From Minisyncoccota bacterium (lineage in GTDB: Bacteria > Patescibacteriota > Minisyncoccia > Phycocordibacterales > UBA9973): DNA of 64,000 nucleotides. Made by a program: the position numbers and the translations under genes. The DNA lies in assembly GCA_041657885.1 (NCBI GenBank), contig JBBABB010000001.1, positions 1,094-65,093 on the forward strand, given 5' to 3'. Below, piece after piece: positions 1-29,443 of the stretch (the first letter of the stretch is position 1; every line of letters begins with the position of its first letter). Below the pieces are notes generated by a model. That model was given only the letters and a program-made list of their open reading frames with translations, ran no database searches and was not told the origin of the DNA.

Positions 1-1067
1 TCTTCTTCTATATCTAACATTTCAAAAAACTTTGTTGCCAATTCTTTCGGCATAATATATTCGCTTAATGTTGACGAAAGTTGTCGTTCCAGTTCTTCGC
101 CTCGTATGCACGGTTCAAAACATTTTTGCGTTTTAGATTTCTTTGAGCAGTGATAATAAGTATAAAAATGTTTATTCCCGTTCTTTTGTCGTTTTATTTT
201 TATCTCTCCAGTAATTCCCATACCACACGAACCACAAGAGAGAAGTCCACAAAATGGTCTTGGGTTAGCTTCCTTTTTTGGTTTGCGACCCTTGCCTCGT
301 AAAATAGCATTTGCTTTATCAAAAAGTTCTTTGGAAATAATCGGCTCATGCTTGCCCTCGTATATTTCGCCTGCGTGGCGAAAATGTCCGTAATAAATAG
401 GGTTGCTAATAATGTGCGATATTCGTGAAATATGTACACGATTATTATTTTTTGATTTTACATTTCCATTTTCTAAAACTTTTGCGAGGTCTTCAAGTCT
501 GACATTTCCCGTTGCATAAAGTTCAAATATTTTTTTCACGAGTTTTGCGTTTTTCTGATGAATAGCAATTTTCTTAATATTGGAATTATTTATATATCCA
601 AATGGAGCAAGTCCGGGATAGTCGCCATTTCGTGCTTTCTGTCGTAGTCCGCGGGCGGTATTCTCGCTTAATTGGCGGACATATTCATTTGCCATTCCTA
701 ACTCAATAGACATCATTAACACATTATCATTTGGATAATGACTTTGTCCGTGTGTTTGAATATGTTGGATAATTCCTTGTTGCAAAAGCCATTGTATTTT
801 TCCACTATCTACTGGATTGCGTGATAAGCGGTCAATTTTCCAGCAAACAATTCCTTGTGCTTCACCATTTTGTATACGCGAAAGCATATTGTTAAAAACT
901 GGACGGCCGGGGATTTTTGCTGACCGCTTTTCTATAAATTCATCAGAAATATAAATATTTTCTCGTTTGGCTAGTTCACGAAGTTCGGCGAGTTGTGATT
1001 CAATAGAGAGGATTTGTTTATCCTCAACGTCAGTGCTTTTGCGAGCATATAAAAAGTATTTAAGCAT
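1..1067 (-). CDS. Large serine recombinase (resolvase/invertase N-domain, recombinase domain and zinc beta-ribbon); 5' part only, continues past the window edge
   Basis: Minus-strand translation from ATG at 1067-1065 reads MLKYFLYARKSTDVEDKQILSIESQ...GIVCWKIDRLSRN...CGLLSCGSCG..YYHCSKK. This gives the catalytic Ser motif (YARKST), the DRLSR motif and a C-terminal Cys4 ribbon. It is absent from the ORF track because it has no in-window stop. Confidence 0.8.
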   Translation of the reverse strand, partial: MLKYFLYARKSTDVEDKQILSIESQLAELRELAKRENIYISDEFIEKRSAKIPGRPVFNNMLSRIQNGEAQGIVCWKIDRLSRNPVDSGKIQWLLQQGIIQHIQTHGQSHYPNDNVLMMSIELGMANEYVRQLSENTARGLRQKARNGDYPGLAPFGYINNSNIKKIAIHQKNAKLVKKIFELYATGNVRLEDLAKVLENGNVKSKNNNRVHISRISHIISNPIYYGHFRHAGEIYEGKHEPIISKELFDKANAILRGKGRKPKKEANPRPFCGLLSCGSCGMGITGEIKIKRQKNGNKHFYTYYHCSKKSKTQKCFEPCIRGEELERQLSSTLSEYIMPKELATKFFEMLDIEE

Positions 1068-1127
1068 AGTTGTATTATACCACAACTGATGACATAAAGC
1101 ACAACTATAGAGTATAATCTGTGTATA

Positions 1128-1331
1128 ATGAATGAATCAGAAAAACTGGGCGAAAATCTAAAACGTATTAGAACTGCAAAAGGTATCTCGCAAGGCGAGA
1201 TTGGCCGAATACTTGAAGTAGATAAAAGTTTTATAAGTAATATTGAAAATGGTAAAACAAATCCCACTCTTTCAACGATTGCAAAAATAGCAAAAGCGGT
1301 CGGGGTGTCGGTCGGGGAGTTAATGAAATAG
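1128..1331 (+). CDS. XRE/Cro-C1 family helix-turn-helix transcriptional regulator
   Basis: 67 aa. LKRIRTAKGISQGEIGRILEVDKSFISNIENGKTNPTLSTIAKIAKAVGVSVGEL is a canonical HTH_3 motif. The stop lies 2 nt before the next ORF, implying an operon. Confidence 0.8.
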   Translation: MNESEKLGENLKRIRTAKGISQGEIGRILEVDKSFISNIENGKTNPTLSTIAKIAKAVGVSVGELMK

Positions 1332-1333
1332 TT

Positions 1334-2923
1334 ATGAAAATAAAAGAAATTAAAATTATCAACAATACAGAAACTTGTGCTGATATAAACCTAATTCTAG
1401 GTGCTAACAACACGGGTAAAAGTACTTTTATAAGAGAGCTTGAAGAAGCAAGTAAAACCTGTCAAATTGGGTTAAAGAACAAATGGATAACAGGCGTAAA
1501 ATTTGAGGCGTCTGGAATCAAGACTAGATTTGATAGTTTATTTCCCGGAGTATCTGCCTTTGCTGTTTACGAGGGAACAGAACAAGAAATAAATAGTATT
1601 GGAGGAGCAAATATTTTTAGTTCAAACTGGAATAATGAAGTTTTTCAAGCAATGAAGGCAAAGCTGGATACTTCTGAAACATATGAAGCTATAACTCATC
1701 CATCAAAAGATAGGGATTGGCATTATTTTAGTTTTGTTAATAATATGTCTGTTTCTATGGAAAACTGTGATTCAAGATTATCAGGACCATTTTTTACTCA
1801 AATAAACAGGGTGGATGAAAATTATAAAGATATAGTTCATTACTTTTATTCACAAAACTCTCTTTTTCAAAAAATATCAGATCATATTAAAGATGTTTTT
1901 GGTATAGAAATTATTTTTGACGACTTAGAGCAAGGACAAAAAGATATCCGCTTAGCACCTGATGTTGCTAAACCTGCTTCTTTTCCAAACCGTAGAAATG
2001 AAGGTCAGTTTTGGGCAGAACATTCTCCGATATTAGCTTCTCAAGGTGATGGCTTGAAAGCTTACTTGAAAATATTATACGCTCTCTTTAATCCCGCAAA
2101 GGATGTGATCATAATTGATGAACCTGAAGCATTTTTACATTCACCTCAAAGAAGAAGTTTAGGTAAATTCATTGCCGATAACGCATCTAGTGGTAAGCAA
2201 ATATTTATTTCTACTCATGATAGTGAATTTTTAAGAGGAGTTCTCACAAATACTACCTGTGATACACAAGTAGTTCATTTAAAAGAGAAACTAGGTAAAA
2301 GAAGCTATACAGTTAATAGAACACCTTCAAATACCAGAACGAGAAATAATAATGAACTCATGCTTAATTCTTATTTTAATAAATTAACCGTATTATGCGA
2401 AGCCGAAGACGATAGAGTAATTTATCAATATGCAAGTCAATCTTTTTTCCCTACACCGACGGTTGATATTCATTTTCTTGGACTCAATGCTAAAAGTGAT
2501 TTGTTTCTAATATTCAAACATTTACAGAGTTTAGAAATTGAAACCGTAGGAATAGTGGATATCGATGTTCTTTATTCAGGAGAATGTTTAGGGCTTTCTC
2601 TTAACCAAACAGAAAAAAATTTAATAGAGGAGGTGAAAAACCTCTTAAATGCTTTATCACAAGCAGACAGAGATATATTTAAGGAAAATGGGGTTGTCTC
2701 TCTGTCGTCCAATGCTTCACTTAGTCAGAAGGTTCAAGATGCAATACAAATAGCGAAGAAATACAAAATTTTTATTGTACCCATAGGAGAACTTGAGAGT
2801 TGGCTAGATACACCAACCGCATCAAAAAGAAAAGTGCAGGCTATGAAAAATGAGATCGACACAAGTCCAACGACTACAAAAAAATCAACCTTAAAAAAAT
2901 TCATAGGAGAAGTTATTTCTTAA
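1334..2923 (+). CDS. OLD-family / PARIS-like ABC-type ATPase fused to a Toprim nuclease (putative anti-phage or abortive-infection effector)
   Basis: Walker A ILGANNTGKST, Walker B VIIIDEPEAFLHSPQ and H-loop ISTHDSEF. The C-terminal half carries Toprim-like acidic motifs (VLCEAEDD, GIVDIDVLYSGE). It is coupled to the upstream HTH gene. Confidence 0.6.
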   Translation: MKIKEIKIINNTETCADINLILGANNTGKSTFIRELEEASKTCQIGLKNKWITGVKFEASGIKTRFDSLFPGVSAFAVYEGTEQEINSIGGANIFSSNWNNEVFQAMKAKLDTSETYEAITHPSKDRDWHYFSFVNNMSVSMENCDSRLSGPFFTQINRVDENYKDIVHYFYSQNSLFQKISDHIKDVFGIEIIFDDLEQGQKDIRLAPDVAKPASFPNRRNEGQFWAEHSPILASQGDGLKAYLKILYALFNPAKDVIIIDEPEAFLHSPQRRSLGKFIADNASSGKQIFISTHDSEFLRGVLTNTTCDTQVVHLKEKLGKRSYTVNRTPSNTRTRNNNELMLNSYFNKLTVLCEAEDDRVIYQYASQSFFPTPTVDIHFLGLNAKSDLFLIFKHLQSLEIETVGIVDIDVLYSGECLGLSLNQTEKNLIEEVKNLLNALSQADRDIFKENGVVSLSSNASLSQKVQDAIQIAKKYKIFIVPIGELESWLDTPTASKRKVQAMKNEIDTSPTTTKKSTLKKFIGEVIS

Positions 2924-2942
2924 AATAAAACTACAAAGGGAG

Positions 2943-2966
2943 TTTGCCGATTCGCAAATCGGCAAA
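2943..2966 (+). terminator. Stem-loop (9-bp stem, CGCA loop) immediately after the OLD-like gene stop
   Basis: tttgccgatt cgca aatcggcaaa forms a perfect hairpin. There is no strong U-tract, so the terminator assignment is tentative. Confidence 0.35.
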
Positions 2967-3263
2967 GGTTAACACGCGCATGGGCGTGGGTGGGTGAGAA
3001 GCGAATACTTGGAGCTTCGCAAGGCCGGAGGCTGGCGAGCCGAGGCGGGGTCGCAGGATTTTTCCGCAGAAAAATACCTGTGACAATGACTAATACGTAC
3101 GACCTCCCCTCCAAAAAACTCTCCCTCCAAAAAATCTTGGGCTTTTGAATTTTTGAACCTCACCCTAAAAAAACGCGAAGCGTCCGGAAACCCTTTGCCA
3201 CACTACGCAGAGCTTCGCTCTGCTCGCGAAAATTTTTCTGAAAAACCCTTGAGTTTGATTGCG

Positions 3264-3496
3264 GAGTATCTTTTAAAATCAGCTAGAACCTATTTTAGTA
3301 AAAATTGTTCCTAAAAACCTATCAAACGAACTAATGCGCACGCTCCGCGTGCCTCTTAACTTTAAACTAATTACCACGCTCTACTAATGTGCTAATTCCA
3401 AATGGACTCAGAAAATGGAAACAAATATTTTGGGGATTAGGATTTCCATTTTCCTCGACTGTATCTTTTGGCGAGATTTCAAATTCTGCCCGCAGG
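3264..3496. repeat. Left copy of a ~233-bp inverted repeat bracketing the R-M module
   Basis: The reverse complement of 8829-9060 matches this segment with about 5 differences (1 indel, ~4 substitutions). It contains internal hairpins (gcacgc..gcgtgc; aaaatggaaa..tttccatttt). Confidence 0.85.
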
Positions 3497-3572
3497 AGGG
3501 GTTTGGGGAGGAATGCGGGCGAAATTTATTGGTAGGCTATGGAAAGAATGCAAAAAATGTTAGAATTACTCT

Positions 3573-4412
3573 GTGGAATATATAAACAAAGTTTATTTTA
3601 AAGATGCTAGAAAAATGACAGAATTACCAGACAATTCTGTACAGTTAATTGTAACTAGTCCTCCTTATTTCAATATAAAAGATTATTCTCTTGACGGATA
3701 TCAAAAAAATAAAAAAGCTCAAAAAGCAACTGGTCAAATTGGTGATATCGCAGATTATGAAAAATACATTGATGAAATGGTTTTGGTTTGGAAAGAATGT
3801 GAGCGTGTATTAAAACCGAATGGAAAGTTAATAATTAATACACCACTTATGCCGATGTTAAAAAAAAATCTGATCACTCATTACAACAGGCACATTTTTA
3901 ATATTAACAACGACATAGAACACTCAATATTAAAAAAAACTAATTTGTTTTTAATGGATGTTTATTTTTGGAATAGAACGAATCCGAGCAAAAAACTAAT
4001 GTTCGGTAGCTATCCATATCCGCGAAATTTTTATGCTCAAAATACAACAGAGTTTATAACTGTGTTTGTGAAAGACGGAATTCCAGAAAATAATCTCCCA
4101 GCAAAAATTAAAGATAGAAGTAAATTGAGCCAAAAAGAATGGGTAGAATTTACTAAGCAAATTTGGAATATTCCAATCCCCGGCAAAGGCGATTTGGCTT
4201 TTGGAGAACATTCAGCACTAATGCCAGAAGAAATTGTTAGGCGTTGTGTTAGATTATTTACCTTTGTTGAAGATGTTGTCTTAGACCCATTTGCAGGATC
4301 AGGGACTACTTTAAAAGTAGCAAAGGAATTAGAAAGAAATTTTGTCGGGTATGAGATTTCTAAAAGTTATGAGGATATTATAAAATTAAAGTTGCGACCT
4401 AAATTATTTTAA
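3573..4412 (+). CDS. DNA methyltransferase, beta-class amino-MTase (N6-adenine or N4-cytosine); M subunit 1 of a Type II R-M system
   Basis: Motif IV TSPPY lies N-terminal to motif I DPFAGSGTT, which is the beta permutation. The likely true start is ATG at 3615 (MTELPDNS), since the track start at 3573 is a GTG. Confidence 0.85.
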   Translation: MEYINKVYFKDARKMTELPDNSVQLIVTSPPYFNIKDYSLDGYQKNKKAQKATGQIGDIADYEKYIDEMVLVWKECERVLKPNGKLIINTPLMPMLKKNLITHYNRHIFNINNDIEHSILKKTNLFLMDVYFWNRTNPSKKLMFGSYPYPRNFYAQNTTEFITVFVKDGIPENNLPAKIKDRSKLSQKEWVEFTKQIWNIPIPGKGDLAFGEHSALMPEEIVRRCVRLFTFVEDVVLDPFAGSGTTLKVAKELERNFVGYEISKSYEDIIKLKLRPKLF

Positions 4413-4415
4413 TTT

Positions 4416-5198
4416 ATGCTTAAAATTAACAAAATCTATAATTTAGACTGCTTCGACTTTTTAAGTAAAGTTGATGATTCGTCAATCAATCTTGCTGTTA
4501 TTGATCCCCCTTATAATATGAGCAAGGCAGATTGGGATACATTCAAATCACATAAAGACTTTTTGGATTTTACTTACAAATGGATAGACGCATTATTACC
4601 GAAATTAACACAAAATGGAAGTTTGTATATTTTTAACACACCATTTAACTCAGCATATATTTTACAATATCTTACTTCAAAAAATATGGTTTTCCAAAAT
4701 TGGATTACTTGGGACAAAAGAGATGGGCTTGGAACATCAAAAAGAAAATATAGCAATGGACAAGAATCAATACTATTTTTCACAAAATCTGATAAACATA
4801 TTTTTAATTACAACGATATAAGAGTTCCTTATGAATCCACAGACAGAATAGAACACGCCGTTAAAAAAGGAATCTTAAAAAATGGTGAGAGATGGTTTCC
4901 TAACCCGAACGGAAGATTTTGTGGAGAAGTTTGGCACATCACTAGTGAACGACACAAAAGAAAAATAAATGGGAAAGTTCAAAAAATGGAACACTTAACA
5001 CCTAAGCCGTTGGATTTAATTGAAAGAATTGTAAAAGCAAGTTCTAAAAAAGGAGATTTAGTTTTGGATTGCTTCGTCGGTAGCGGAACGACAGCAGTTG
5101 CTTCAAAAATACTAGGTAGAAATTTTTTGTGTTCCGATATAGACAAAAAATATGTTAAATTAGCAGAAAAAAATTTATATTTATATGCCGATAAATAA
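4416..5198 (+). CDS. Second beta-class amino DNA methyltransferase (M subunit 2)
   Basis: IDPPYN (motif IV) is followed C-terminally by DCFVGSGTTAVAS (motif I). It starts 3 nt after the M1 stop. Confidence 0.85.
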   Translation: MLKINKIYNLDCFDFLSKVDDSSINLAVIDPPYNMSKADWDTFKSHKDFLDFTYKWIDALLPKLTQNGSLYIFNTPFNSAYILQYLTSKNMVFQNWITWDKRDGLGTSKRKYSNGQESILFFTKSDKHIFNYNDIRVPYESTDRIEHAVKKGILKNGERWFPNPNGRFCGEVWHITSERHKRKINGKVQKMEHLTPKPLDLIERIVKASSKKGDLVLDCFVGSGTTAVASKILGRNFLCSDIDKKYVKLAEKNLYLYADK

Positions 5199-6441
5199 TA
5201 TCAATCAAGGAAATAAGGCACTAGAATTTATAGATTTTAGAATTAAAGACGACAAATATCGTGGTTCTCGTTCTTCGCAACATAACAGATATATCATGCA
5301 ACAAGTTGTAGATATATTAAAACTTTTTAATCAATATGCTCCAAATAAAATGCTTATGCCTATTCGTACGGCTGATATTTCAAAAAGACCACAAAATACA
5401 GCAGAGGAAGCTACATACGCTCAATTTTGTAATGACGCAAAAGAAAAAACAAAAGGCATAACAAGTAAAGAAGGAATAGGAACGCAAGATGCTATGAGAA
5501 AAAATTTATTTCCCGATTTGCACAGAATGGGACTTATTGTTAGGTATGATAAAGATAAAAAACCAACAGACCCATTTTCAAAACAAGGTGTTAAATATGT
5601 ATCGCTGAGTAATCAAGGACTAAAGTTGATAAAAGGGAAAACTATTCTTGAGCAATACTTTATATTTTCAAAAGGAATAGATAATTTACTTGGTGGTTAT
5701 ATTGACATTATTTTGGATATATTAAGAGATAAAGAGTATGGAATAGATAACCTAAACATTTTTGAATATATGTTTTTTGTTTCAGCAGTAGGAACGGAAA
5801 CAAGTTTTAACAAAAGCACAGATGAAGCAGTCGATTTAATAAAAGAATATAGAAATTTAACATCCACACAAAGAAAATCTGTAATTGAAACTTTAAAAGT
5901 TGAGCTAAATCCTAAAAAGTTTGCAGGAAATAAGACAAAGAAAAGAGATTTTCATAATTGGCATAATAAAGCCGTACAAGTATTTTATCTTCTAAATCAA
6001 ACAGTTTATTTTGAAGTCAGGGGCGATCAATTAGTTCTTAAGGGAGGAATAAATGGTTTTGCTGAAACAGCAATAATAAGCACAAGACTAGATAGATCAT
6101 TAAATGAGAAATACCAGTATTTTGTAAAAAATGAAATTGAAAAAGTAACGGGATTTGAACTTCATCATGTTGTTCCTTTGGCGTGGTCAGAAAGTATCCA
6201 CCATTTCAAATTGTTAGATAAATGGGAAAATATGGTTTATATAGATGCGTTTAGTCATGCAAAAATTACACAAAACAGAAACCGTAATGTAATTATAGAT
6301 TTTGTGAGTGATGACATGACACTAACCGATCATTCAAAAAATCAGATATATTTAAAAGTTCAAGATAATATTGCATATAAACCAACAAACAAGACAGTGA
6401 TGAAAAAGTATAATAATGAATTGCTGAATACGGTGAAATAA
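5185..6441 (+). CDS. Putative restriction endonuclease with a C-terminal HNH-like motif
   Basis: It overlaps the M2 stop by 14 nt. The C-terminus ELHHVVPLAWSE...NMVYIDAFSHAKIT has an HNH-like His-His...Asn...His spacing. The N-terminus shows no recognisable similarity. Confidence 0.5.
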   Translation: MPINNINQGNKALEFIDFRIKDDKYRGSRSSQHNRYIMQQVVDILKLFNQYAPNKMLMPIRTADISKRPQNTAEEATYAQFCNDAKEKTKGITSKEGIGTQDAMRKNLFPDLHRMGLIVRYDKDKKPTDPFSKQGVKYVSLSNQGLKLIKGKTILEQYFIFSKGIDNLLGGYIDIILDILRDKEYGIDNLNIFEYMFFVSAVGTETSFNKSTDEAVDLIKEYRNLTSTQRKSVIETLKVELNPKKFAGNKTKKRDFHNWHNKAVQVFYLLNQTVYFEVRGDQLVLKGGINGFAETAIISTRLDRSLNEKYQYFVKNEIEKVTGFELHHVVPLAWSESIHHFKLLDKWENMVYIDAFSHAKITQNRNRNVIIDFVSDDMTLTDHSKNQIYLKVQDNIAYKPTNKTVMKKYNNELLNTVK

Positions 6442-6452
6442 AAAATCCCCTA

Positions 6453-6798
6453 AAATACTAGTGGGAAAGGTAAATGGCTAACTACTACTTGTGCTTTGTC
6501 TTATCGACAAGCACAAAGGTTTTCGCGTCGCCTCCGTAAGGAGGAACGCGCTCACCTTTAGTTAGAGTAATCTCGCGTTTCGTTCCCGAGACTTGATATT
6601 GCCCTGACTTAGGAGCAGTGCCACCTGTTTTGATTTTAGTCATAACAGTTATTTGCTTAATTCTAATAATCTAGGGGCTTATCGAACCTCTCACCCCCTC
6701 GTTTAAGCTTCGTAGAAGCACAAACGAGGGGGAGGAGGATAAGTTGATCCCATAGAGAATAAAATTCGGCACCTAAGTTTTTCCCACTAGTATTTTAA
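6453..6798. repeat. MITE-like or structured-RNA element bounded by perfect 16-bp terminal inverted repeats (TAAAATACTAGTGGGA)
   Basis: 6453-6468 is the exact reverse complement of 6783-6798. The interior has nested hairpins including GNRA-type loops (cctcc-gtaa-ggagg; ccccctcgttt...aaacgaggggg) and no ORF of 60 aa or more. Confidence 0.5.
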
Positions 6799-6892
6799 AG
6801 GACTTTAATTTTTGAATTATATACTTATTTTAAAATTTTACAATTTCAAGAAAGTGCTTTCTCGTGCGCGAACGTGAGAATGGGTTAAGTGT

Positions 6893-6901
6893 GCTATAAT
6901 A
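6893..6901 (+). promoter_or_regulatory. Extended -10 promoter (TGcTATAAT) upstream of the zinc-ribbon ORF
   Basis: tgctataat matches TGnTATAAT. It overlaps the 3' end of a recurrent 30-nt motif. Confidence 0.35.
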
Positions 6902-6929
6902 TACTTACAACTGAATAGTTCGATCAAGA

Positions 6930-7367
6930 GTGGTGGTAGAGAATTGGCTCGATGACCCCACAGCAACCTGCTTCGGTAAGGTGCTAAATCCAACCAGACA
7001 CGAAAGTGTCAGGAAAGATGTGTTTGTGCCTAGTCCGCACAAAAACTCTTTCCTCTTTATTAGAGGAATTTTTTATTTTATGAAGAAAATACCAGAAGGT
7101 TTAGTTAGGTGTGAAGTATGTGGAGAGTATAAAGGTGAGGTAAAAGAGAAAGACTTAAATTGGGGCGACTCTTGTTTTTACAAAGCAGAAGTAGAAAAGA
7201 GTGAAGAATACCTCTCTGTGTCTTGTCTTTGCGACGGCATCTTATGTCATAAGTGTAAGAAAAATAAAATTCATAGGCCTATATCAAATTCTTATGATGA
7301 GATTGATAATGACATTGGTCATTGGCCGTGGTTCACCGGAATGATGCCATGTAAAGAGTGTAAATAA
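6930..7367 (+). CDS. Small cysteine-rich zinc-ribbon protein; likely real start at ATG ~7080 (MKKIPEGL...)
   Basis: CEVCG...SCLCDGILCHKCKK...PCKECK gives three CxxC pairs. The upstream 150 nt of the track ORF looks like a structured 5' UTR rather than coding sequence. Confidence 0.4.
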   Translation: MVVENWLDDPTATCFGKVLNPTRHESVRKDVFVPSPHKNSFLFIRGIFYFMKKIPEGLVRCEVCGEYKGEVKEKDLNWGDSCFYKAEVEKSEEYLSVSCLCDGILCHKCKKNKIHRPISNSYDEIDNDIGHWPWFTGMMPCKECK

Positions 7368-7379
7368 TAAAAAATCATT

Positions 7380-7610
7380 ATGAAAAATATAGAAGAATAC
7401 AAAACAACCAGTGAGTGGTATAAAGATGCTCGAAGTGAAGGATATAATTTCCCCGTCTCAATGTGCCACGGATTAGATGTTGGACAAAGAAAATTAAAAT
7501 TAAGTTTTGCAGACGTTTTTCAATTGTTTGTAAAAAATAATATAATTATTCAAGTCAATGATAGGTTTATTTATAATTTGGAGGGATATCTCGCTATCAA
7601 AAACAACTAG
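7380..7610 (+). CDS. Hypothetical small protein (76 aa)
   Basis: An ORF only 13 nt after the previous stop, with no recognisable motif. Confidence 0.3.
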   Translation: MKNIEEYKTTSEWYKDARSEGYNFPVSMCHGLDVGQRKLKLSFADVFQLFVKNNIIIQVNDRFIYNLEGYLAIKNN

Positions 7611-7644
7611 GATTAAATTATAAAAGAATGATAAAATAAAATAT

Positions 7645-8337
7645 ATGCCCGACGACCAAAACGCATCTCAAAATCCAATTTCCGAAGAAAACCCTTCACC
7701 TACAAGCCCCCAAGAGTCCATAGAGCAAGGCACTGAAAACACAGCACATTCTGAACCTTCCGTTGCACCTCTTGATGCCCTAGAAAGCTCACCGAACGAC
7801 TTTTCAGTGAAAAGTAATGATATACCACCCTCAAATTCTACCCCTACGGAAGCAGTAAATGAGCCAGAAACTCTAGAAAAACAAGTCCCAAATGAACCTA
7901 ACCCCGAGCCAGTTTCTGAACCCATAGAATCTCCTGAACCCGAAACGGCTCAAATACCGGTATCTGAGCCGTTGAACTCTACGAGCGAGCCGTTAGGCGA
8001 GCAAGTAGAATTCCCAGAAACTAAAACAGAGACAAAACCAACCCCCGAAGTAAAACCTGAACCAGTAGAAACTAACCCCATTCTTGTTTCAACTAAACCC
8101 TCCCAAAAAAATTTATGGCAAAGATTTCTAAGTAAAATACAAATTGGAAAAAGAAAAAAGCTGGATCGTGTTATGACTTTATTTCTTAAACAATCTAAAA
8201 TCACAAACGACGAAGTCGAGAAATTTCTTCATGTCTCGGATGCAACTGCAACTAGATACCTTTCACAATTGGAGAAAGAAGGAAAAATAAAACAAGTTGG
8301 TAAAATTGGAAAAGCAGTTTCGTATTCCAGAATTTAA
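7645..8337 (+). CDS. Protein with a Pro/Glu/Ser-rich disordered N-terminal half and a C-terminal winged-HTH domain
   Basis: About 150 aa of low-complexity PEPV/SEP repeats precede LDRVMTLFLKQSKITNDEVEKFLHVSDATATRYLSQLEKEGKIKQVGKIGKAVSYSRI, a DeoR/MarR-like wHTH. Confidence 0.5.
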   Translation: MPDDQNASQNPISEENPSPTSPQESIEQGTENTAHSEPSVAPLDALESSPNDFSVKSNDIPPSNSTPTEAVNEPETLEKQVPNEPNPEPVSEPIESPEPETAQIPVSEPLNSTSEPLGEQVEFPETKTETKPTPEVKPEPVETNPILVSTKPSQKNLWQRFLSKIQIGKRKKLDRVMTLFLKQSKITNDEVEKFLHVSDATATRYLSQLEKEGKIKQVGKIGKAVSYSRI

Positions 8338-8418
8338 TTTTCGGGGAGTCGCCGTCCTTCTTTTCCTCACGGCGGTTTAGTGCGCGAACGGGAGGGTGGG
8401 TCAAGCACGAGTATTTCC

Positions 8419-8730
8419 GCCTCGGGCATTTCCGCTAGGGTGTCCATGACTAAAGGACGAGTGCCGCCCAGCTGGTGCAATACTAAAATCTAAAGGCGAA
8501 AGCTATACACACTAAACACGGATATGAATAAAGTAGAGTGGGGATGGCGAGGGCAGACTGCTGGTAATCCAGCAGAGCCCGACCCGGGGAGAGGAAACTT
8601 CCTCTCCCCAAGAAGTTGCGGGCAATCTAGTGAACGGCTCATTTACTGGTATTTGAGCCGTTCGGATATTTTGCTTGCCCGCTCATAGGCATCTAGGCAC
8701 TCGTAGCCCTAGCGGAAATGCCCGAGGCGG
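8419..8730. repeat. Second MITE-like or structured element, closed by a perfect 24-bp inverted repeat
   Basis: ccgcctcgggcatttccgctaggg (8420-8443) is the exact reverse complement of 8706-8729. The interior holds hairpins such as gggagagga-aactt-tcctctccc. Confidence 0.5.
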
Positions 8731-8781
8731 ATGCCGAGGGTGCACCTCAAAACTTTAAATAACCACCAAAGTAGAAAAATG

Positions 8782-8791
8782 GTATAATGCC
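8782..8791 (+). promoter_or_regulatory. Extended -10 promoter (TGgTATAAT) reading into the right inverted repeat
   Basis: tggtataatg is a perfect extended -10. A transcript would cover 8829-9060, which is complementary to the plus-strand RNA of the left repeat. Confidence 0.35.
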
Positions 8792-8828
8792 CGAGACAAT
8801 GATTTTTGTATTTTGATTTTGAGTTTTT

Positions 8829-9060
8829 CCTGCGGGCAGAATTTGAAATCTCGCCAAAAGATATAGCCGAGGAAAATGGAAATCCTAATCCCCAAAATTT
8901 TGTTTCCATTTTCCGAGTCCATTTGGAATTAGCACATTAGTAGAGCGTGGTAATTAGTTTAAAGTTAAGAGGCACGCGGAGCGTGCGCATTAGTTCGTTT
9001 GATAGGTTTTTAGGAACAATTTTTACTAAAATAGGTTCTAGCTGATTTTAAAAGATACTC
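8829..9060. repeat. Right copy of the ~233-bp inverted repeat
   Basis: See the left copy at 3264-3496. Its outer end lies 6 bp from the cysK-like stop codon. Confidence 0.85.
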
Positions 9061-9066
9061 ATTAAA

Positions 9067-10068
9067 TTAAATATAAAAATTTGCTAATTCTTGAGTTATT
9101 TTTTCATCTAAAAGTTCCTTTTCAGCCATCCAGTCATCATTAAAGGCGTGGGTAAGATAACTTTCACCACTGTCGCCAATAATTAAGACCATATTTTTTA
9201 TTTTTTCTGAAATCGGTTCTCCATTAATAAATTTCATCGCATAATAAAGAACCATTCCACTTGAATCTCCAACTAGCAATCCTTTCTGTTCAGCAAAAAA
9301 GCGCATAGTATTAAATGCTTCCTTATCCGCAACATAATCATGTTTATCAAAAATAGAAGTATTAATATTTTTAGGTGGAATAGCTCCGGCTGGATATCCT
9401 GGGCCGGAAATAAAATAACCATGTCCGCGTGGGGAGAAATGACTGGAACCTTTTGGCTCTAGGGCGATTACCTTAGTATGTCCATGTTCTTTTATATATC
9501 GGCCAGATCCAGATAGGGAACTACCAGTACCGATTGTTCCAACTAAATAATCAGCATCAGGTACTTGTTCAAAAATTTCTTTACCCAAAGTGTTGTAGTA
9601 GCCCTTGGGGTTTTCAGGGTTGTCGTACTGGTCAAGATTGATTCCGCCTTTTTCTTCAGCCAGTCGCTTAGCAGTTTTGCGACGGACATCAACCAAATGC
9701 CCACCCTTTGGGTCTTCTTCGTCACTACAGAAATGTAATTTGCCGCCATAGGCCTTGATTGACCTAAGCTTATCGGCTGGAGCATGTTTGTCAACGATAG
9801 CGGTGAATTTATATCCCCGAGCGGCTGACAGCATTGCTAGGGCCTTGGCTGTATTTCCAGAAGAAGATTCAAAAATTTCCATTCCTTTTTTTAATTGGCC
9901 AGATTGTTCGGCTGCATTCATTAAGACTTGAGCAGTCCTATCTTTAAAACTTCCAGCTGGGTTAAAATATTCCAGCTTTAAATAAATCTTCCAATCCGAC
10001 CTAGTGGTCGATATTTCAAGCATTGGGGTTTCCCCGATGAGTTCATCAATACTTTTATTAATAGTCAT
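9067..10068 (-). CDS. cysK: PLP-dependent cysteine synthase / cystathionine beta-synthase family enzyme (fold type II)
   Basis: SFKDR lysine motif, GNTAKALA, and a Gly-rich loop GTIGTGSSLSG. Confidence 0.75.
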   Translation of the reverse strand: MTINKSIDELIGETPMLEISTTRSDWKIYLKLEYFNPAGSFKDRTAQVLMNAAEQSGQLKKGMEIFESSSGNTAKALAMLSAARGYKFTAIVDKHAPADKLRSIKAYGGKLHFCSDEEDPKGGHLVDVRRKTAKRLAEEKGGINLDQYDNPENPKGYYNTLGKEIFEQVPDADYLVGTIGTGSSLSGSGRYIKEHGHTKVIALEPKGSSHFSPRGHGYFISGPGYPAGAIPPKNINTSIFDKHDYVADKEAFNTMRFFAEQKGLLVGDSSGMVLYYAMKFINGEPISEKIKNMVLIIGDSGESYLTHAFNDDWMAEKELLDEKITQELANFYI

Positions 10069-24546: not shown

Positions 24547-24562
24547 AATTAAAAAATAAAAA

Positions 24563-24598
24563 CCTATACAAACTCTGCCATGGCAGAGTTTGTATAGG
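24563..24598. repeat. REP-like 36-bp palindrome, copy 1; acts as a bidirectional terminator between convergent genes
   Basis: cctatacaaactctgccatggcagagtttgtatagg is a perfect palindrome. Near-identical copies lie at 28823 and 29367. Confidence 0.6.
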
Positions 24599-24601
24599 TT
24601 T

Positions 24602-25102
24602 TTATTTTCTCTTATATTCCGCAAATGACAATCTATATTTATTTTTCTCATCAGCTTCGTGTTTTTCTTCGGAGATTTTTTGCCATTTAGTCATATCAAT
24701 TTGAGGGAAGAAAGTATCGGCATCGGGGAATTCTACTTCCACATGAGTAATATAAAGCTTATCCACTTTGTCCATGAATAGTTTGTATATTTGTCCTCCG
24801 CCGATTATAAAACATTCACTATCTTCCGGTTCTGTTTTTTCAAGTAATTCCATGAGTTCATCTACCCCGTATACTATTTCAATTCCTTCACTTTTAAAAT
24901 CAGCATCTTTTGTAAGAATTATATTTCGGCGATTTGGAAGTGGTCGCCCAATAGATTCAAAAGTTTTTTGCCCCATTATTACTGTGTGTCCACTTGTGGT
25001 CTCTCTGAAATGCTTCATGTCAGCAGGTAAATCCCAAAGAAGGGCATTTCCTTTTCCAATTTCATTATTTTTTCCTATGGCTGATATTATTGATAGAATC
25101 AT
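24602..25102 (-). CDS. folA: Dihydrofolate reductase
   Basis: IAAIGKNNEIG..LPW (substituted LLW here) and GRKTFESIGRPLPNRRNIILT. Confidence 0.85.
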   Translation of the reverse strand: MILSIISAIGKNNEIGKGNALLWDLPADMKHFRETTSGHTVIMGQKTFESIGRPLPNRRNIILTKDADFKSEGIEIVYGVDELMELLEKTEPEDSECFIIGGGQIYKLFMDKVDKLYITHVEVEFPDADTFFPQIDMTKWQKISEEKHEADEKNKYRLSFAEYKRK

Positions 25103-28372: not shown

Positions 28373-28813
28373 ATGAGTAATCACAAAGATGGGATAGCAT
28401 CAAATGGAGAGTTACTTCACTATTCTGTGGGGGCTGTTATTGAAAAAGATGGAAAATATTTGCTAATTGATCGAGTTAATCCACCCTTTGGCTTCGCAGG
28501 GCTTGCTGGTCATGTGGATGAAGGTGAATCGGAAGATGATGCAATCACACGAGAAGTGACAGAAGAATCTGGGTTGAAAGTATTGTCTTATAAACTTCTT
28601 TTTGAAGAAGAAATTCTTTGGAATTATTGTCGTGGTGTTAGCCGTGGGGCTACAGCACATAAATGGCGTTTATATGAATGTGAGGTTGAAGGAGAAGTTA
28701 TTCATAACAAAGAGGAAACTAAATCAATCGGATGGTATAGTATTGATGAAATCAAAAAGATGAATCTTGAGCCAGTTTGGGAGTATTGGTTCGAAAAATT
28801 AAAAATAATTTAA
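28373..28813 (+). CDS. NUDIX hydrolase
   Basis: Nudix box GHVDEGESEDDAITREVTEESGL. Confidence 0.8.
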   Translation: MSNHKDGIASNGELLHYSVGAVIEKDGKYLLIDRVNPPFGFAGLAGHVDEGESEDDAITREVTEESGLKVLSYKLLFEEEILWNYCRGVSRGATAHKWRLYECEVEGEVIHNKEETKSIGWYSIDEIKKMNLEPVWEYWFEKLKII

Positions 28814-28822
28814 ATATAAAAA

Positions 28823-28858
28823 CCTATACATTTTCTGCCATGGCAGAGAATGTATAGG
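28823..28858. repeat. REP-like palindrome, copy 2
   Basis: cctatacattttctgccatggcagagaatgtatagg shares the core CTCTGCCATGGCAGAG with copies 1 and 3 and has compensatory arm changes. Confidence 0.6.
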
Positions 28859-28861
28859 TTT

Positions 28862-29338
28862 TTATTTGTATGGTTTTTCTAATTTGAAAGTTTTAATACA
28901 CTTATCTAATTTAATTTCCTTAATATAATCTTTAAATTCTTTTGGCATAGGAGATGGTCCCACCCAAACACTTTTTTGAATCATAATGTAATTAAATTTT
29001 TTCAAATGCCATCTCAACCATTCCCTATGAGCTTTCTTCTCTGTTGGTACATCAAACATCACCAATAGAGTTTTATCTTTGGAAATATTTTCTGGTCGAT
29101 CGAATTGTTTTAATGAATCAAATTTTCTTTTCACATATTCTTTCCCATATTTTGATAAAACTATTCCCGCCAATTCTTTTTCAATTAAACCTCTTTTCCT
29201 CAATCTACTTATAGTGTTATACATGACATCTTTTTTGTATTTCTTAAAACGGGGGATTCCAAAAAGATTTACCCTAACTCCTTTGTAGTTAAGTTCGGTA
29301 TTCCACAACTCTTCTAATAGTTCACTTACAATAGACAT
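28862..29338 (-). CDS. Small winged-HTH plus Cas2/VapD-like-pattern protein (paralog A)
   Basis: N-terminal YNTISRLRKRGLIEK (wHTH-like) and C-terminal LLVMFDVPTEKKAHREWLRWHLKKFNYIMIQKSVWVG. The ORF at 40491 is a paralog. The gene is bracketed by REP-like palindromes. Confidence 0.35.
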   Translation of the reverse strand: MSIVSELLEELWNTELNYKGVRVNLFGIPRFKKYKKDVMYNTISRLRKRGLIEKELAGIVLSKYGKEYVKRKFDSLKQFDRPENISKDKTLLVMFDVPTEKKAHREWLRWHLKKFNYIMIQKSVWVGPSPMPKEFKDYIKEIKLDKCIKTFKLEKPYK

Positions 29339-29366
29339 ACAATATATATTATATACTCTTGATAAA

Positions 29367-29404
29367 ATCTATACAAACTCTGCCATGGCAGAGATTGTAT
29401 AGAT
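29367..29404. repeat. REP-like palindrome, copy 3, in a divergent promoter region
   Basis: atctatacaaactctgccatggcagagattgtatagat. Confidence 0.6.
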
Positions 29405-29443
29405 TTCTCGAGATTAGATTTTAGTGATATAATTTAACTTAAT

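What the first reader, a model, noticed from the sequence alone, without database searches (positions are those of the whole stretch)
1..2923. Large serine recombinase divergently linked to an XRE-HTH / OLD-PARIS-like ATPase-Toprim nuclease operon
The recombinase has a clear catalytic-Ser motif, a DRLSR motif and a Cys4 zinc ribbon, and is truncated by the window edge. The 67-aa HTH gene stops 2 nt before a 529-aa protein carrying ABC-ATPase Walker A/B and H-loop motifs plus Toprim-like acidic motifs. This architecture matches the OLD family (P2 Old, Gabija GajA) and fused AriA-AriB (PARIS). No helicase partner (GajB-like) is present, so it resembles a class-1 OLD or a single-chain PARIS-like effector under an XRE regulator. 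It is the first cargo of the island, next to the recombinase.
Basis: partly seen in the sequence, partly recalled or inferred. Interest (0 to 1): 0.65.

Follow-up and report, generated by a model that had tools for sequence, protein, structure and literature searches.

The report
OLD-family nuclease on a recombinase island
A small mobile island in a Paceibacterota (CPR) genome carries a stand-alone OLD-type ATPase-nuclease behind a small repressor-like gene and next to a restriction-modification system, which makes it an ordinary new member of a known anti-phage family.

Summary
A large serine recombinase (LSR) lies on the minus strand, starts at 1067 and runs off the window. A 67-aa XRE/HTH_3 gene (1128-1331) ends 2 nt before a 529-aa ORF (1334-2923).

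The 529-aa protein is an OLD-family ABC-ATPase/Toprim nuclease:
- The ATPase motifs and the Toprim acidic residues (E356, D360, D409, D411, E488) are invariant in 44 homologues.
- A family profile hits Thermus scotoductus (Ts) OLD best among solved structures, and E356, D360, D409 and D411 align with four of its six metal ligands.
- The AlphaFold model's top matches are the retron Eco8 OLD nuclease, GajA and Ts OLD.

No helicase, reverse transcriptase or separate Toprim gene accompanies it, here or in 80 related loci, so it is class-1-like. The PARIS (AriA/AriB) reading is not supported.

The HTH partner is lineage-specific. It is present only in homologues at 88% identity or more, and absent at 52-77% identity and in all 80 distant loci.

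The gene is cargo of a ~9.5 kb LSR island. The island is inserted at the 3' end of tRNA-Thr(CGT), which lies left of the window, and ends at about 9060. It also carries a type II restriction-modification system.

Verdict: a new member of a known kind, of modest interest.

The parts
1..1067 (-). Large serine recombinase, N-terminal 355 aa. The full gene is 531 aa and extends 528 nt left of the window.
   Evidence: Translation. Pfam Resolvase, Recombinase and Zn_ribbon_recom. Full-length gene in L001 at 8139..9734. Its last 34 codons are antisense to two tRNA-Thr genes.
1068..1127 (.). 60-bp divergent control region. It holds a sigma70-like promoter (ATGACA-18-TATAAT, 1089-1118) ending about 10 nt before the HTH ATG, and three ACAACT/AGTTGT half-sites (1068-1073, 1082-1087, 1101-1106).
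   Evidence: Promoter scan gives 11 of 12 matches, although the total site count in the region equals chance. Inverted and direct repeats. Operator function is inferred.
1128..1331 (+). 67-aa XRE-family helix-turn-helix protein, the putative repressor of the HTH-OLD operon and perhaps of the recombinase.
   Evidence: HTH_3 3.1e-16. PADLOC HTH_VI, C-protein 'Control_protein' and capH models. A 78% identical orthologue sits in the same position in L092.
1334..2923 (+). 529-aa OLD-family nuclease. The ABC ATPase covers residues 1 to about 335 and the Toprim domain about 340-529.
1400..1423 (+). Walker A (GANNTGKS; G23, N25, G28 and K29 invariant).
   Evidence: Alignment A1.
2114..2131 (+). Walker B with catalytic Glu (IIDEPE; D262, E263, P264 and E265 invariant). 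The H-loop H295 lies at 2216-2218.
   Evidence: Alignment A1.
2399..2413 (+). First Toprim motif E356-x3-D360 (CEAEDDR). E356 corresponds to Ts OLD E377 (metal A) and D360 to D381 (metal B).
   Evidence: Invariant in A1. HMM alignment to 6p74. Residue roles from PMC7049728.
2558..2566 (+). Toprim DxD motif (D409-I-D411), corresponding to Ts OLD D431/D433 (metal A).
2786..2797 (+). GELE motif (G485 and E488 invariant). It is the proposed equivalent of the Ts OLD S478-x-E480 and P2 D541-x-E543 metal B ligands.
   Evidence: Invariance. The equivalence rests on position and order only; it was not aligned residue by residue.
2924..3091 (.). GC-rich, strongly structured non-coding stretch directly after the OLD stop. 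Its first hairpin is at 2943-2966.
   Evidence: Fold z-scores of -3.6 and -3.7. No Rfam match. Not conserved in other loci. Function unknown.
3092..3497 (+). Internal attP-like site in inverted orientation. It joins a frameshifted copy of the recombinase 3' end (3092-3266, 90% identical) to a copy of the island's right end (3264-3497, 98% identical). The core GAG is at 3264-3266.
   Evidence: Self-BLAST, translations, junction alignment.
3573..6441 (+). Type II restriction-modification cargo: two N6/N4 methyltransferases (3573-4412, 4416-5198) and an endonuclease (5185-6441).
   Evidence: N6_N4_Mtase 8.6e-47 and 2.7e-59. PADLOC MTase_II, and REase_II at 4.6e-123.
8828..9060 (-). Right end of the island (the attR element arm). 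The crossover core, CTC on the plus strand, is at 9058-9060, 7 nt from the stop of the chromosomal PALP gene.
   Evidence: Housekeeping genes lie to the right.

Best explanation
The 529-aa protein is a stand-alone (class-1-like) OLD-family nuclease. [quoted passage not shown] E356, D409 and D411 would bind metal A; D360 and the E486-x-E488 motif would bind metal B.

By analogy with P2 OLD, Vibrio cholerae (Vc) OLD, GajA and Eco8, it most likely sits inactive as an oligomer. A phage or foreign-DNA cue would release the Toprim site, which then nicks or degrades DNA, or cleaves tRNA, and stops infection.

In this lineage a 67-aa XRE repressor is co-transcribed just upstream. It probably binds ACAACT repeats that overlap its own promoter and the divergent recombinase start. 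That would hold expression of the nuclease, and perhaps of the recombinase, at a low and safe level on a mobile element.

The pair is the first cargo of a ~9.5 kb island moved by a large serine recombinase. The island is inserted at the 3' end of tRNA-Thr(CGT) and also carries a type II restriction-modification system.

Shown here: domain identity, conserved catalytic residues, lack of a partner gene, and the island junction sequences. Inferred: the anti-phage role, the substrate, the trigger, and repression by the HTH protein.
For: ATPase domain: AAA_21 and AAA_15 score above their cut-offs. G23, N25, G28, K29, D262, E263 and H295 are invariant.

Toprim domain:
- E356, D360, D409, D411, G485 and E488 are invariant in 44 homologues spanning 21-77% identity.
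- 37 of 44 homologues hit Pfam OLD-like_TOPRIM, and 44 of 44 hit the PADLOC 'Old' model, best 2.9e-30.
- The family profile's best solved relative is Ts OLD (6p74, 1.9e-12), then the retron Eco8 OLD nuclease (8.5e-12). E356, D360, D409 and D411 align with Ts E377, D381, D431 and D433. Those are experimentally defined metal ligands (PMC7049728).

Structure:
- The full-length model has pLDDT 88.9. Its top 21 PDB matches are all OLD-family proteins: Eco8 at 1.2e-13, GajA at 7e-11 and Ts OLD at 3.9e-09, each over 580-650 columns. SMC and Rad50 heads match only about 390 columns.
- The Toprim-only model has pLDDT 93.2. Its top 22 matches are all OLD Toprim regions.

No partner gene: no gene family recurs beside the 80 related genomic loci. 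HsdR appears in 9 and there is no helicase or RT cluster. None appears in the close loci either.

HTH link: the same LSR<-|->HTH->OLD layout occurs in L092. There OLD is 88% and HTH 78% identical but the recombinase only 52%.

Island: the junction triplet shares a GAG core. tRNA-Thr lies at the left junction. Housekeeping genes flank both sides.

Function of known OLD proteins: PMC12392090, bioRxiv 10.64898/2026.07.10.737580 and PMC10568477.
Against: - On its own sequence the Toprim Pfam hit is below threshold, 18.8 against 23.2 bits.
- Identity to solved OLD proteins is only 13-17%. TM-scores are modest, 0.42-0.45 for the full length and up to 0.56 for the domain. Domain-level Foldseek E-values are weak, 7e-3 and worse.
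- The third acidic motif (E486/E488) was matched to Ts S478/E480 by position only.
- The candidate catalytic Lys/Arg was not identified.
- The HTH is missing from most homologues, so it is not needed for the nuclease to be tolerated.
- Some homologues sit among housekeeping genes (L085, L093). An archaeal OLD class, Cran1, has a non-defence role (PMC12796447). A defence function therefore cannot be assumed.
- No empty attB was found to confirm the island ends.
Confidence: 0.8

Rival explanations
1. The HTH-OLD pair is mainly an addiction (toxin-antitoxin-like) module that stabilises the island. The nuclease would be the toxin. The XRE protein would be the labile antitoxin or repressor, whose loss after island excision kills the cell.
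For: - The two genes are tightly coupled, 2 nt apart, on a mobile element.
- The pair is conserved together while the recombinase diverges.
- The HTH resembles HipB/Y4mF-type antitoxins and C-proteins, though below curated cut-offs.
- P2 OLD is lethal in recBC cells (PMC7049728).
Against: - Homologues at 52-77% identity, and all 80 distant ones, lack an adjacent HTH. Some sit alone in core-genome neighbourhoods, so the nuclease is not intrinsically toxic.
- Vc OLD is reported as non-toxic when expressed (PMC12392090).
- The 67-aa protein is a bare DNA-binding domain with no extra domain to neutralise a 529-aa enzyme.
Confidence: 0.12
2. It is a single-chain PARIS-type effector (a fused AriA-AriB, class 4 OLD). 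It would sense phage anti-restriction proteins and cleave tRNA.
For: - The PADLOC AriA model matches the ATPase domain at 2.4e-16, and AriAB at 1.3e-11.
- The AriA ATPase is a sequence hit in the PDB.
- An R-M system sits next door, which is the kind of context PARIS guards. That link is my own knowledge, not tested here.
Against: - The AriAB match covers only residues 255-376, the C-terminal end of the ATPase plus the first Toprim motif.
- There is no DUF4435 hit in the query or in any of 44 homologues, whereas 37 hit OLD-like_TOPRIM.
- The Toprim model matches AriB poorly (8ux9_A, rank 26, E 0.27, TM 0.28), behind 22 OLD Toprim regions.
- The best profile hit is class 1 Ts OLD.
Confidence: 0.05
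3. It is not a defence gene. It would be an OLD-like ATPase-nickase used by the mobile element or the cell for DNA processing (replication, repair or chromosome handling), as with archaeal Cran1.
For: - Cran1 shows that OLD-family proteins can have cell-cycle roles (PMC12796447).
- Homologues in L085 and L093 lie among housekeeping or metabolic genes.
- In L088-L091 the homologue travels with a Prim-Pol/helicase replication module.
Against: - Here it sits directly beside a type II R-M system on a 9.5 kb island.
- In L083 it is adjacent to a second OLD paralogue and a HicA toxin.
- 9 of 80 distant loci have HsdR next door.
- The distribution is patchy, which is typical of accessory defence genes: only 40 representative clusters reach E<=1e-30.
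Confidence: 0.08

Closest known systems
Class 1 OLD family nucleases (P2 Old, Thermus scotoductus OLD PDB 6P74, Vibrio cholerae Vc OLD)
   Same: [quoted passage not shown]
- The E / D / DxD metal-ligand pattern aligns with Ts E377, D381, D431 and D433.
- There is no helicase, RT or split Toprim partner.
- It is carried on a mobile element, as P2 old is.
   Different: - Identity to Ts OLD is only about 13-17%.
- About 50 residues of helices (three helices) sit between the DxD strand and the last acidic motif. The spacing is 75 residues, against 45 in Ts OLD and 86 in P2.
- The metal-B motif reads E-x-E rather than S-x-E.
- A co-transcribed XRE repressor precedes it in this lineage.
- It lies inside a defence island next to an R-M system, whereas class 1 genes were described as isolated (PMC10568477).
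- The host is a CPR bacterium.
Retron Eco8 OLD nuclease (class 3; PDB 9LP9, 9P4J)
   Same: It is the best full-length fold match (E 1.2e-13) and the second-best profile hit (8.5e-12). The PADLOC retron I-B ATPase-Toprim model matches residues 255-468.
   Different: There is no reverse transcriptase or msr/msd RNA nearby. The Eco8 effector is about 750 aa with large insertions. The NCBIfam Eco8 model scores 28.9 bits against a cut-off of 250.
Gabija GajA (class 2 OLD; PDB 8SM3)
   Same: Same two-domain fold (Foldseek 7e-11). The Toprim-only model reaches TM 0.53-0.56.
   Different: There is no GajB/UvrD-like helicase gene in the window neighbourhood or in related loci.
PARIS AriA/AriB (class 4 OLD; PDB 8UX9)
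   Same: The ATPase domain is of the AAA_21/AriA type.
   Different: The Toprim domain is fused and OLD-like, not DUF4435. The fold match to AriB is poor.
C-protein / XRE-controlled restriction and defence operons, and serine-integrase islands such as SCC (CcrA/B)
   Same: A small HTH gene directly upstream of a potentially harmful nuclease gene on a mobile element. The recombinase's best NCBIfam similarities are CcrB, XisF and CcrA-type large serine recombinases.
   Different: All recombinase scores are far below the equivalog cut-offs. The HTH protein's targets are untested.

Membership tests
OLD family nuclease | N-terminal ABC-type ATPase with Walker A, Walker B/catalytic Glu and H-loop | tested here: met
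   AAA_21 scores 58.2 bits (cut-off 27) and AAA_15 37.3 bits (cut-off 32.1). G23, N25, G28, K29, D262, E263 and H295 are invariant.
OLD family nuclease | C-terminal Toprim domain with metal A ligands (Glu + DxD) | tested here: met
   E356, D409 and D411 are invariant. They align with Ts OLD E377, D431 and D433 in the profile hit to 6p74. Residue roles come from PMC7049728.
OLD family nuclease | Metal B ligands (Asp/Glu four residues after the first Glu, plus an S/T/D-x-E motif) | tested here: inconclusive
   D360 is invariant and aligns with Ts D381. E486-x-E488 (E488 invariant) is in the expected place after the last strand, but it was not aligned residue by residue to S478/E480.
OLD family nuclease | Match to the curated Pfam OLD-like_TOPRIM model (PF20469) above its gathering score | tested here: inconclusive
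   The query scores 18.8 bits against a cut-off of 23.2, so it fails on its own. 37 of 44 aligned homologues match at E<=1e-3, best 3.5e-11.
OLD family nuclease | Overall fold like solved OLD proteins | tested here: met
   The top 21 Foldseek PDB hits are Eco8 OLD, GajA and Ts OLD over both domains. The Toprim-only model's top 22 hits are all OLD Toprim regions, with TM up to 0.56 but weak E-values.
OLD family nuclease | Metal-dependent nuclease and ATPase activity | not testable with these tools
   Needs biochemistry.
Class 1 OLD (stand-alone) | No adjacent UvrD-like helicase, reverse transcriptase/ncRNA, or separate Toprim gene | tested here: met
   The window neighbours are the LSR, the HTH gene and R-M genes. 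No partner family recurs in 80 related loci or in the close loci. There is no retron RNA or other Rfam hit in 1-9000 apart from a SAM riboswitch.
Class 1 OLD (stand-alone) | No alpha-helical insertion or C-terminal helical domain in the Toprim region, as in Ts OLD | tested here: not met
   The model shows three helices (about residues 425-476) between the DxD strand and the last strand. P2 OLD has a similarly long spacing between the D453/D455 and D541/E543 residue positions given in PMC7049728. This feature may therefore not be universal for class 1.
PARIS (AriA + AriB, or fused AriAB) | DUF4435-type Toprim effector | tested here: not met
   No DUF4435 hit in the query or in 44 homologues. 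The AriAB model covers only residues 255-376. The AriB fold ranks 26th with TM 0.28.
Gabija | GajB helicase gene adjacent to the OLD gene | tested here: not met
   There is no helicase ORF within the island.
Retron type I-B (Eco8) | Reverse transcriptase and msr/msd ncRNA adjacent | tested here: not met
   No RT domain in the neighbours. No retron RNA in Rfam at E<=1. NCBIfam retron_eff_Eco8 scores 28.9 bits against a cut-off of 250.
Large serine recombinase | Resolvase catalytic domain with the Ser nucleophile, plus Recombinase domain, plus zinc ribbon | tested here: met
   All three Pfam domains score above their cut-offs. The YARKST and KIDRLSRN motifs and four Cys are present.
Integrated LSR element | attL and attR junctions that recombine to give attP and attB with a shared short core | tested here: inconclusive
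   attL, attR and an internal attP-like copy share a GAG core and swap arms exactly as expected. tRNA-Thr lies at attL. No empty attB was found in two metagenome scans.

The most novel reading that the evidence does not exclude
The recombinase gene itself spans the attachment site, so its last residues differ between states: 34 aa in the integrated state (antisense to tRNA-Thr) and 15 aa in the excised state. The island also keeps a second, sequence-intact attP in inverted orientation, between the HTH-OLD module and the R-M module. The most novel reading still open is that this is a functional design. The serine recombinase could then integrate the circle in two permutations, or invert or exchange the defence modules. 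The XRE protein at the divergent promoter would couple expression of the OLD nuclease to the integration state. That would be a programmable defence-cargo switch in CPR bacteria.
Probability: 0.08. Interest if true: 0.6.

Novelty: new member of a known kind. Interest (0 to 1): 0.3.

Why it matters
It adds a well-supported, divergent class-1-type OLD nuclease from a Paceibacterota (CPR) genome. It also shows the gene being moved between such genomes as cargo of serine-recombinase islands, together with restriction-modification genes. That is useful for cataloguing defence in ultra-small bacteria and for choosing divergent OLD proteins for biochemistry. It does not change how OLD nucleases are thought to work. 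The XRE partner is a local add-on rather than a new system type.

Tried and rejected
- A single-sequence search of solved structures gave only weak ABC-ATPase and AriA hits. The profile search was needed to reach Ts OLD and Eco8.
- I looked for an HTH gene next to homologues. phmmer with the window HTH against all ORFs of 80 genomic loci and 11 close loci found no co-directional upstream HTH, except in L001, L002 and L092. A conserved two-gene 'HTH-OLD system' is therefore rejected.
- I looked for any conserved partner by clustering neighbour ORFs. Only HsdR (9 loci) and unrelated ABC ATPases (8 loci) recur.
- I looked for an empty attB, with tRNA-Thr abutting the PALP gene end, using two exact or gapped patterns in metagenome contigs.
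- I looked for an RNA family in the 650-bp gap after the nuclease. Nothing was found in Rfam at E<=1.
- Tandem-element accretion was considered as the origin of the internal attP-like site. It is rejected as a simple explanation because the site is in the wrong (inverted) orientation for a tandem array. This rests on my own reasoning.
- The ABC-transporter and SMC readings are rejected. There is no membrane partner, a Toprim domain is present, and the SMC/Rad50 matches cover only the ATPase head.
Full report
**1. What is in the sequence**

The window comes from a Candidatus Paceibacterota (CPR) metagenome-assembled genome. The 529-aa ORF is 100% identical to a protein NCBI names 'MAG: ATP-binding protein [Candidatus Paceibacterota bacterium]', on a 361,958-bp contig.

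On the minus strand an ORF starts at 1067 and runs off the left edge. It reads MLKYFLYARKSTDVEDKQ..., with KIDRLSRN and a four-cysteine cluster. It matches Pfam Resolvase, Recombinase and Zn_ribbon_recom above their cut-offs. Another assembly of the same locus (L001) gives the complete gene as 531 aa.

A 67-aa HTH_3 protein is encoded at 1128-1331 (3.1e-16). Its stop is followed after 2 nt by the ATG of a 529-aa ORF at 1334-2923.

**2. The 529-aa protein is an OLD-family ATPase-Toprim nuclease**

Sequence evidence:
- Alone, the sequence passes the AAA_21 and AAA_15 cut-offs. It only grazes OLD-like_TOPRIM, at 18.8 bits against a cut-off of 23.2.
- PADLOC models for NsnB and AriA match the ATPase half. 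The 'Old' and retron I-B 'ATPase-Toprim' models match from residue 255 into the C-terminal domain.
- A database search found 742 relatives, many of which carry PF20469.
- In an alignment of 44 relatives (21-77% identity), the invariant columns are the Walker A residues (G23, N25, G28, K29), G240, Walker B with the catalytic Glu (D262, E263), the H-loop H295, and in the C-terminal domain E356, D360, D409, D411, G485 and E488.
- 37 of the 44 hit OLD-like_TOPRIM and all 44 hit PADLOC 'Old' (best 2.9e-30). None hits DUF4435.
- A profile of the alignment finds Thermus scotoductus (Ts) OLD (6p74) as the best solved relative (1.9e-12), then the retron Eco8 OLD nuclease (8.5e-12). The printed alignment puts query E356/D360 on Ts E377/D381 and D409/D411 on D431/D433. 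Schiltz et al. showed by mutation that E377, D431 and D433 (metal A) and D381, S478 and E480 (metal B) are the Ts OLD catalytic ligands (PMC7049728).
- The query's invariant GELE motif (E486-x-E488) sits where the S/T/D-x-E element is expected. I could match it only by order and position.

Structure evidence:
- The AlphaFold model built on the alignment is confident, with pLDDT 88.9 and pTM 0.85.
- Its 21 best PDB matches are all OLD-family proteins aligned over both domains: Eco8 effector 1.2e-13, GajA 7e-11, Ts OLD 3.9e-09. SMC, Rad50 and cohesin heads follow and cover the ATPase part only.
- A separate model of residues 335-529 (pLDDT 93.2) returns OLD Toprim regions as its top 22 hits: the Xcc and Bp OLD C-terminal regions, GajA, Ts OLD at TM 0.53, and Eco8. 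The E-values are weak, 7e-3 to 0.2. AriB of PARIS is only rank 26, with TM 0.28.

The PARIS alternative is not supported.

**3. Which class**

OLD classes are defined by gene neighbourhood. Class 1 is alone, class 2 has a UvrD-like helicase (Gabija), class 3 lies in retrons, and class 4 is split as AriA/AriB (PMC10568477; PMC12796447).

Here the neighbours are the recombinase, the HTH gene and, after a 650-bp gap, two methyltransferases and a type II endonuclease. In 80 related loci from reference genomes no neighbour family recurs, apart from type I HsdR in 9 loci and unrelated ABC ATPases in 8. Close homologues show no helicase or RT either. The protein is class-1-like.

It differs from Ts OLD in having about 50 residues of helices between the DxD strand and the last acidic motif. 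That spacing (75 residues) is closer to the one between the P2 OLD positions D453/D455 and D541/E543.

The family is large. It has 2,336 representative clusters at E<=1e-3 and 1,618 at <=1e-10. The tight clade around this protein is small, with 40 clusters at <=1e-30. Where that clade is named, it is mostly Patescibacteria.

**4. Is the HTH gene part of the system?**

Only locally.
- The same LSR<-|->HTH->OLD layout occurs in an independent contig (L092). There the nuclease is 88% and the HTH 78% identical, but the recombinase only 52% identical. The pair has therefore stayed together while its neighbour diverged.
- Homologues at 77% identity (L083, L087) have no upstream HTH. They have an unrelated, convergent HTH gene downstream, next to a different 592-593-aa serine recombinase.
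- Homologues at 73%, 63%, 58% and 52% identity, and all 80 distant loci, have no adjacent HTH.

The XRE protein is thus an accessory regulator, not a defining component.

The 60-bp divergent region holds an 11-of-12 sigma70-like promoter that ends about 10 nt before the HTH ATG. The number of such sites in the scanned region is no more than chance. The region also holds three ACAACT/AGTTGT half-sites. One abuts the recombinase start, one lies just upstream of the -35 hexamer, and one lies in the spacer. I infer autorepression and possibly co-repression of the recombinase. This is untested.

**5. The island**

Extending left with L001 shows tRNA-Thr(GGT) and tRNA-Thr(CGT) immediately beyond the recombinase. 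The last 34 codons of the recombinase are antisense to them.

Self-comparison revealed two repeats:
- The recombinase 3' region (window -426..-262) recurs inverted at 3092-3266, at 90% identity and frameshifted.
- The stretch 3264-3497 recurs inverted at 8828-9060, at 98.3% identity.

Aligning the three junctions gives the following:
- attL: ...GATTGCG GAG CCGAAGGTGAG... (tRNA side)
- internal site: ...GATTGCG GAG TATCTTTTAAAA...
- attR: ...TTTAAT GAG TATCTTTTAAAA..., 7 nt from the stop of a PALP-family gene

This is the arm-swap pattern expected for attP x attB recombination with a short core. To the right of 9060 lie PALP, prfB, ftsE, ftsX and pyrG. To the left lie tRNAs, gatA, gatC and ligA.

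The island is therefore about 9.5 kb, from window -426 to 9060. It carries the LSR, HTH-OLD, the R-M system, a SAM-riboswitch-led small ORF and a winged-helix protein.

I could not find an empty attB in metagenome contigs, so the boundaries rest on the junction logic and the flanking genes.

The internal site is, by sequence, an intact attP. It is identical to attL for 45 nt on one side and to attR for at least 42 nt on the other. It is in inverted orientation. I have no tested explanation for it.

Homologues of the nuclease are also found on other serine-recombinase elements: L083/L087 with TrwB-like genes, and L088-L091 with a Prim-Pol/helicase.

**6. How it most likely works**

This section is inference from characterised relatives.
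- P2 OLD is an inactive tetramer that opens to cleave tRNA when it senses aberrant or phage-origin DNA structures (bioRxiv 10.64898/2026.07.10.737580).
- Vibrio cholerae (Vc) OLD nicks DNA and blocks phage replication (PMC12392090).
- Ts OLD degrades DNA by two-metal catalysis.

With every ATPase and Toprim catalytic position conserved, the Paceibacterota protein most likely acts the same way. The ATPase module would gate a Toprim nuclease that is released on infection. Trigger and substrate cannot be read from sequence.

A non-defence role, as for archaeal Cran1, and an addiction-module role for the HTH-nuclease pair remain minority possibilities.

**7. Verdict**

This is a sound observation with a largely correct interpretation. 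It is a divergent but recognisable class-1-type OLD nuclease with a lineage-specific XRE regulator, riding a small serine-recombinase defence island at tRNA-Thr. It is a new member of a known kind, and interest is modest. The more unusual items are peripheral to the finding: the recombinase gene spanning its own attachment site, the spare inverted attP, and a SAM riboswitch inside the island.

Noticed in passing
window 6918-7024 (+): A full-length SAM riboswitch (RF00162, 56.1 bits against a gathering score of 44.4, E 4e-11) lies inside the mobile island, just after the R-M genes. It sits upstream of a roughly 95-aa cysteine-rich ORF (MKKIPEGLVRCEVCGEYKGE...) that has no Pfam match. A SAM sensor on a defence island next to SAM-using methyltransferases is unusual.
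   Followed up: partly
window 3092-3497 and 8828-9060; L001 8241-8405: An internal, sequence-intact attP-like site in inverted orientation. It joins a frameshifted copy of the recombinase 3' end to a copy of the island's right end. In the circular form the R-M module would therefore be flanked by inverted repeats of about 410 bp, each containing an att core. Its origin and function are unexplained.
   Followed up: partly
L001 8139-8244 (window -528..-424): The recombinase ORF crosses attL. Its last 34 residues are encoded antisense to tRNA-Thr(CGT) and tRNA-Thr(GGT). After excision the ORF would instead end with the 15 residues YLLKSARTYFSKNCS. The recombinase C-terminus thus depends on the integration state.
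   Followed up: partly
window 2924-3091: A GC-rich stretch in a genome of about 33% GC, directly after the nuclease stop. It folds far better than shuffles on both strands (z -3.6 and -3.7). It has no Rfam match and no copy in related loci.
   Followed up: partly
window ~3190 and ~8915: Two other assemblies of the same organism break inside the island. The ENA contigs end at about 3190 and about 8915. The Logan contigs end 44 nt after the nuclease stop and 36 nt after the PALP gene. This could reflect the repeats, or structural heterogeneity in the population.
   Followed up: no
L083 3786-5558 and 6001-7590: In a 77%-identical locus the homologue sits directly downstream of a second, different OLD-family gene (590 aa, with AAA_15, AAA_21 and OLD-like_TOPRIM). 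It shares an element with HicA, ArdC-like, TrwB-like and two serine recombinase genes.
   Followed up: no
window 24553-24608, 28796-28885, 29365-29406: A family of palindromic repeats of about 40-90 bp, related to each other, recurs between genes in the 24-30 kb region.
   Followed up: no
L003-L082 (80 genomic loci): Distant homologues of the nuclease lie next to a type I restriction HsdR gene in 9 of 80 loci. This argues against the published view that class 1 OLD genes avoid other defence genes.
   Followed up: no
L001 7393-7647; L088 8158-8400: Small (80-84 aa) GIY-YIG ORFs lie close to the island border in this genome, and just downstream of the nuclease homologue in the L088-L090 elements.
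   Followed up: no
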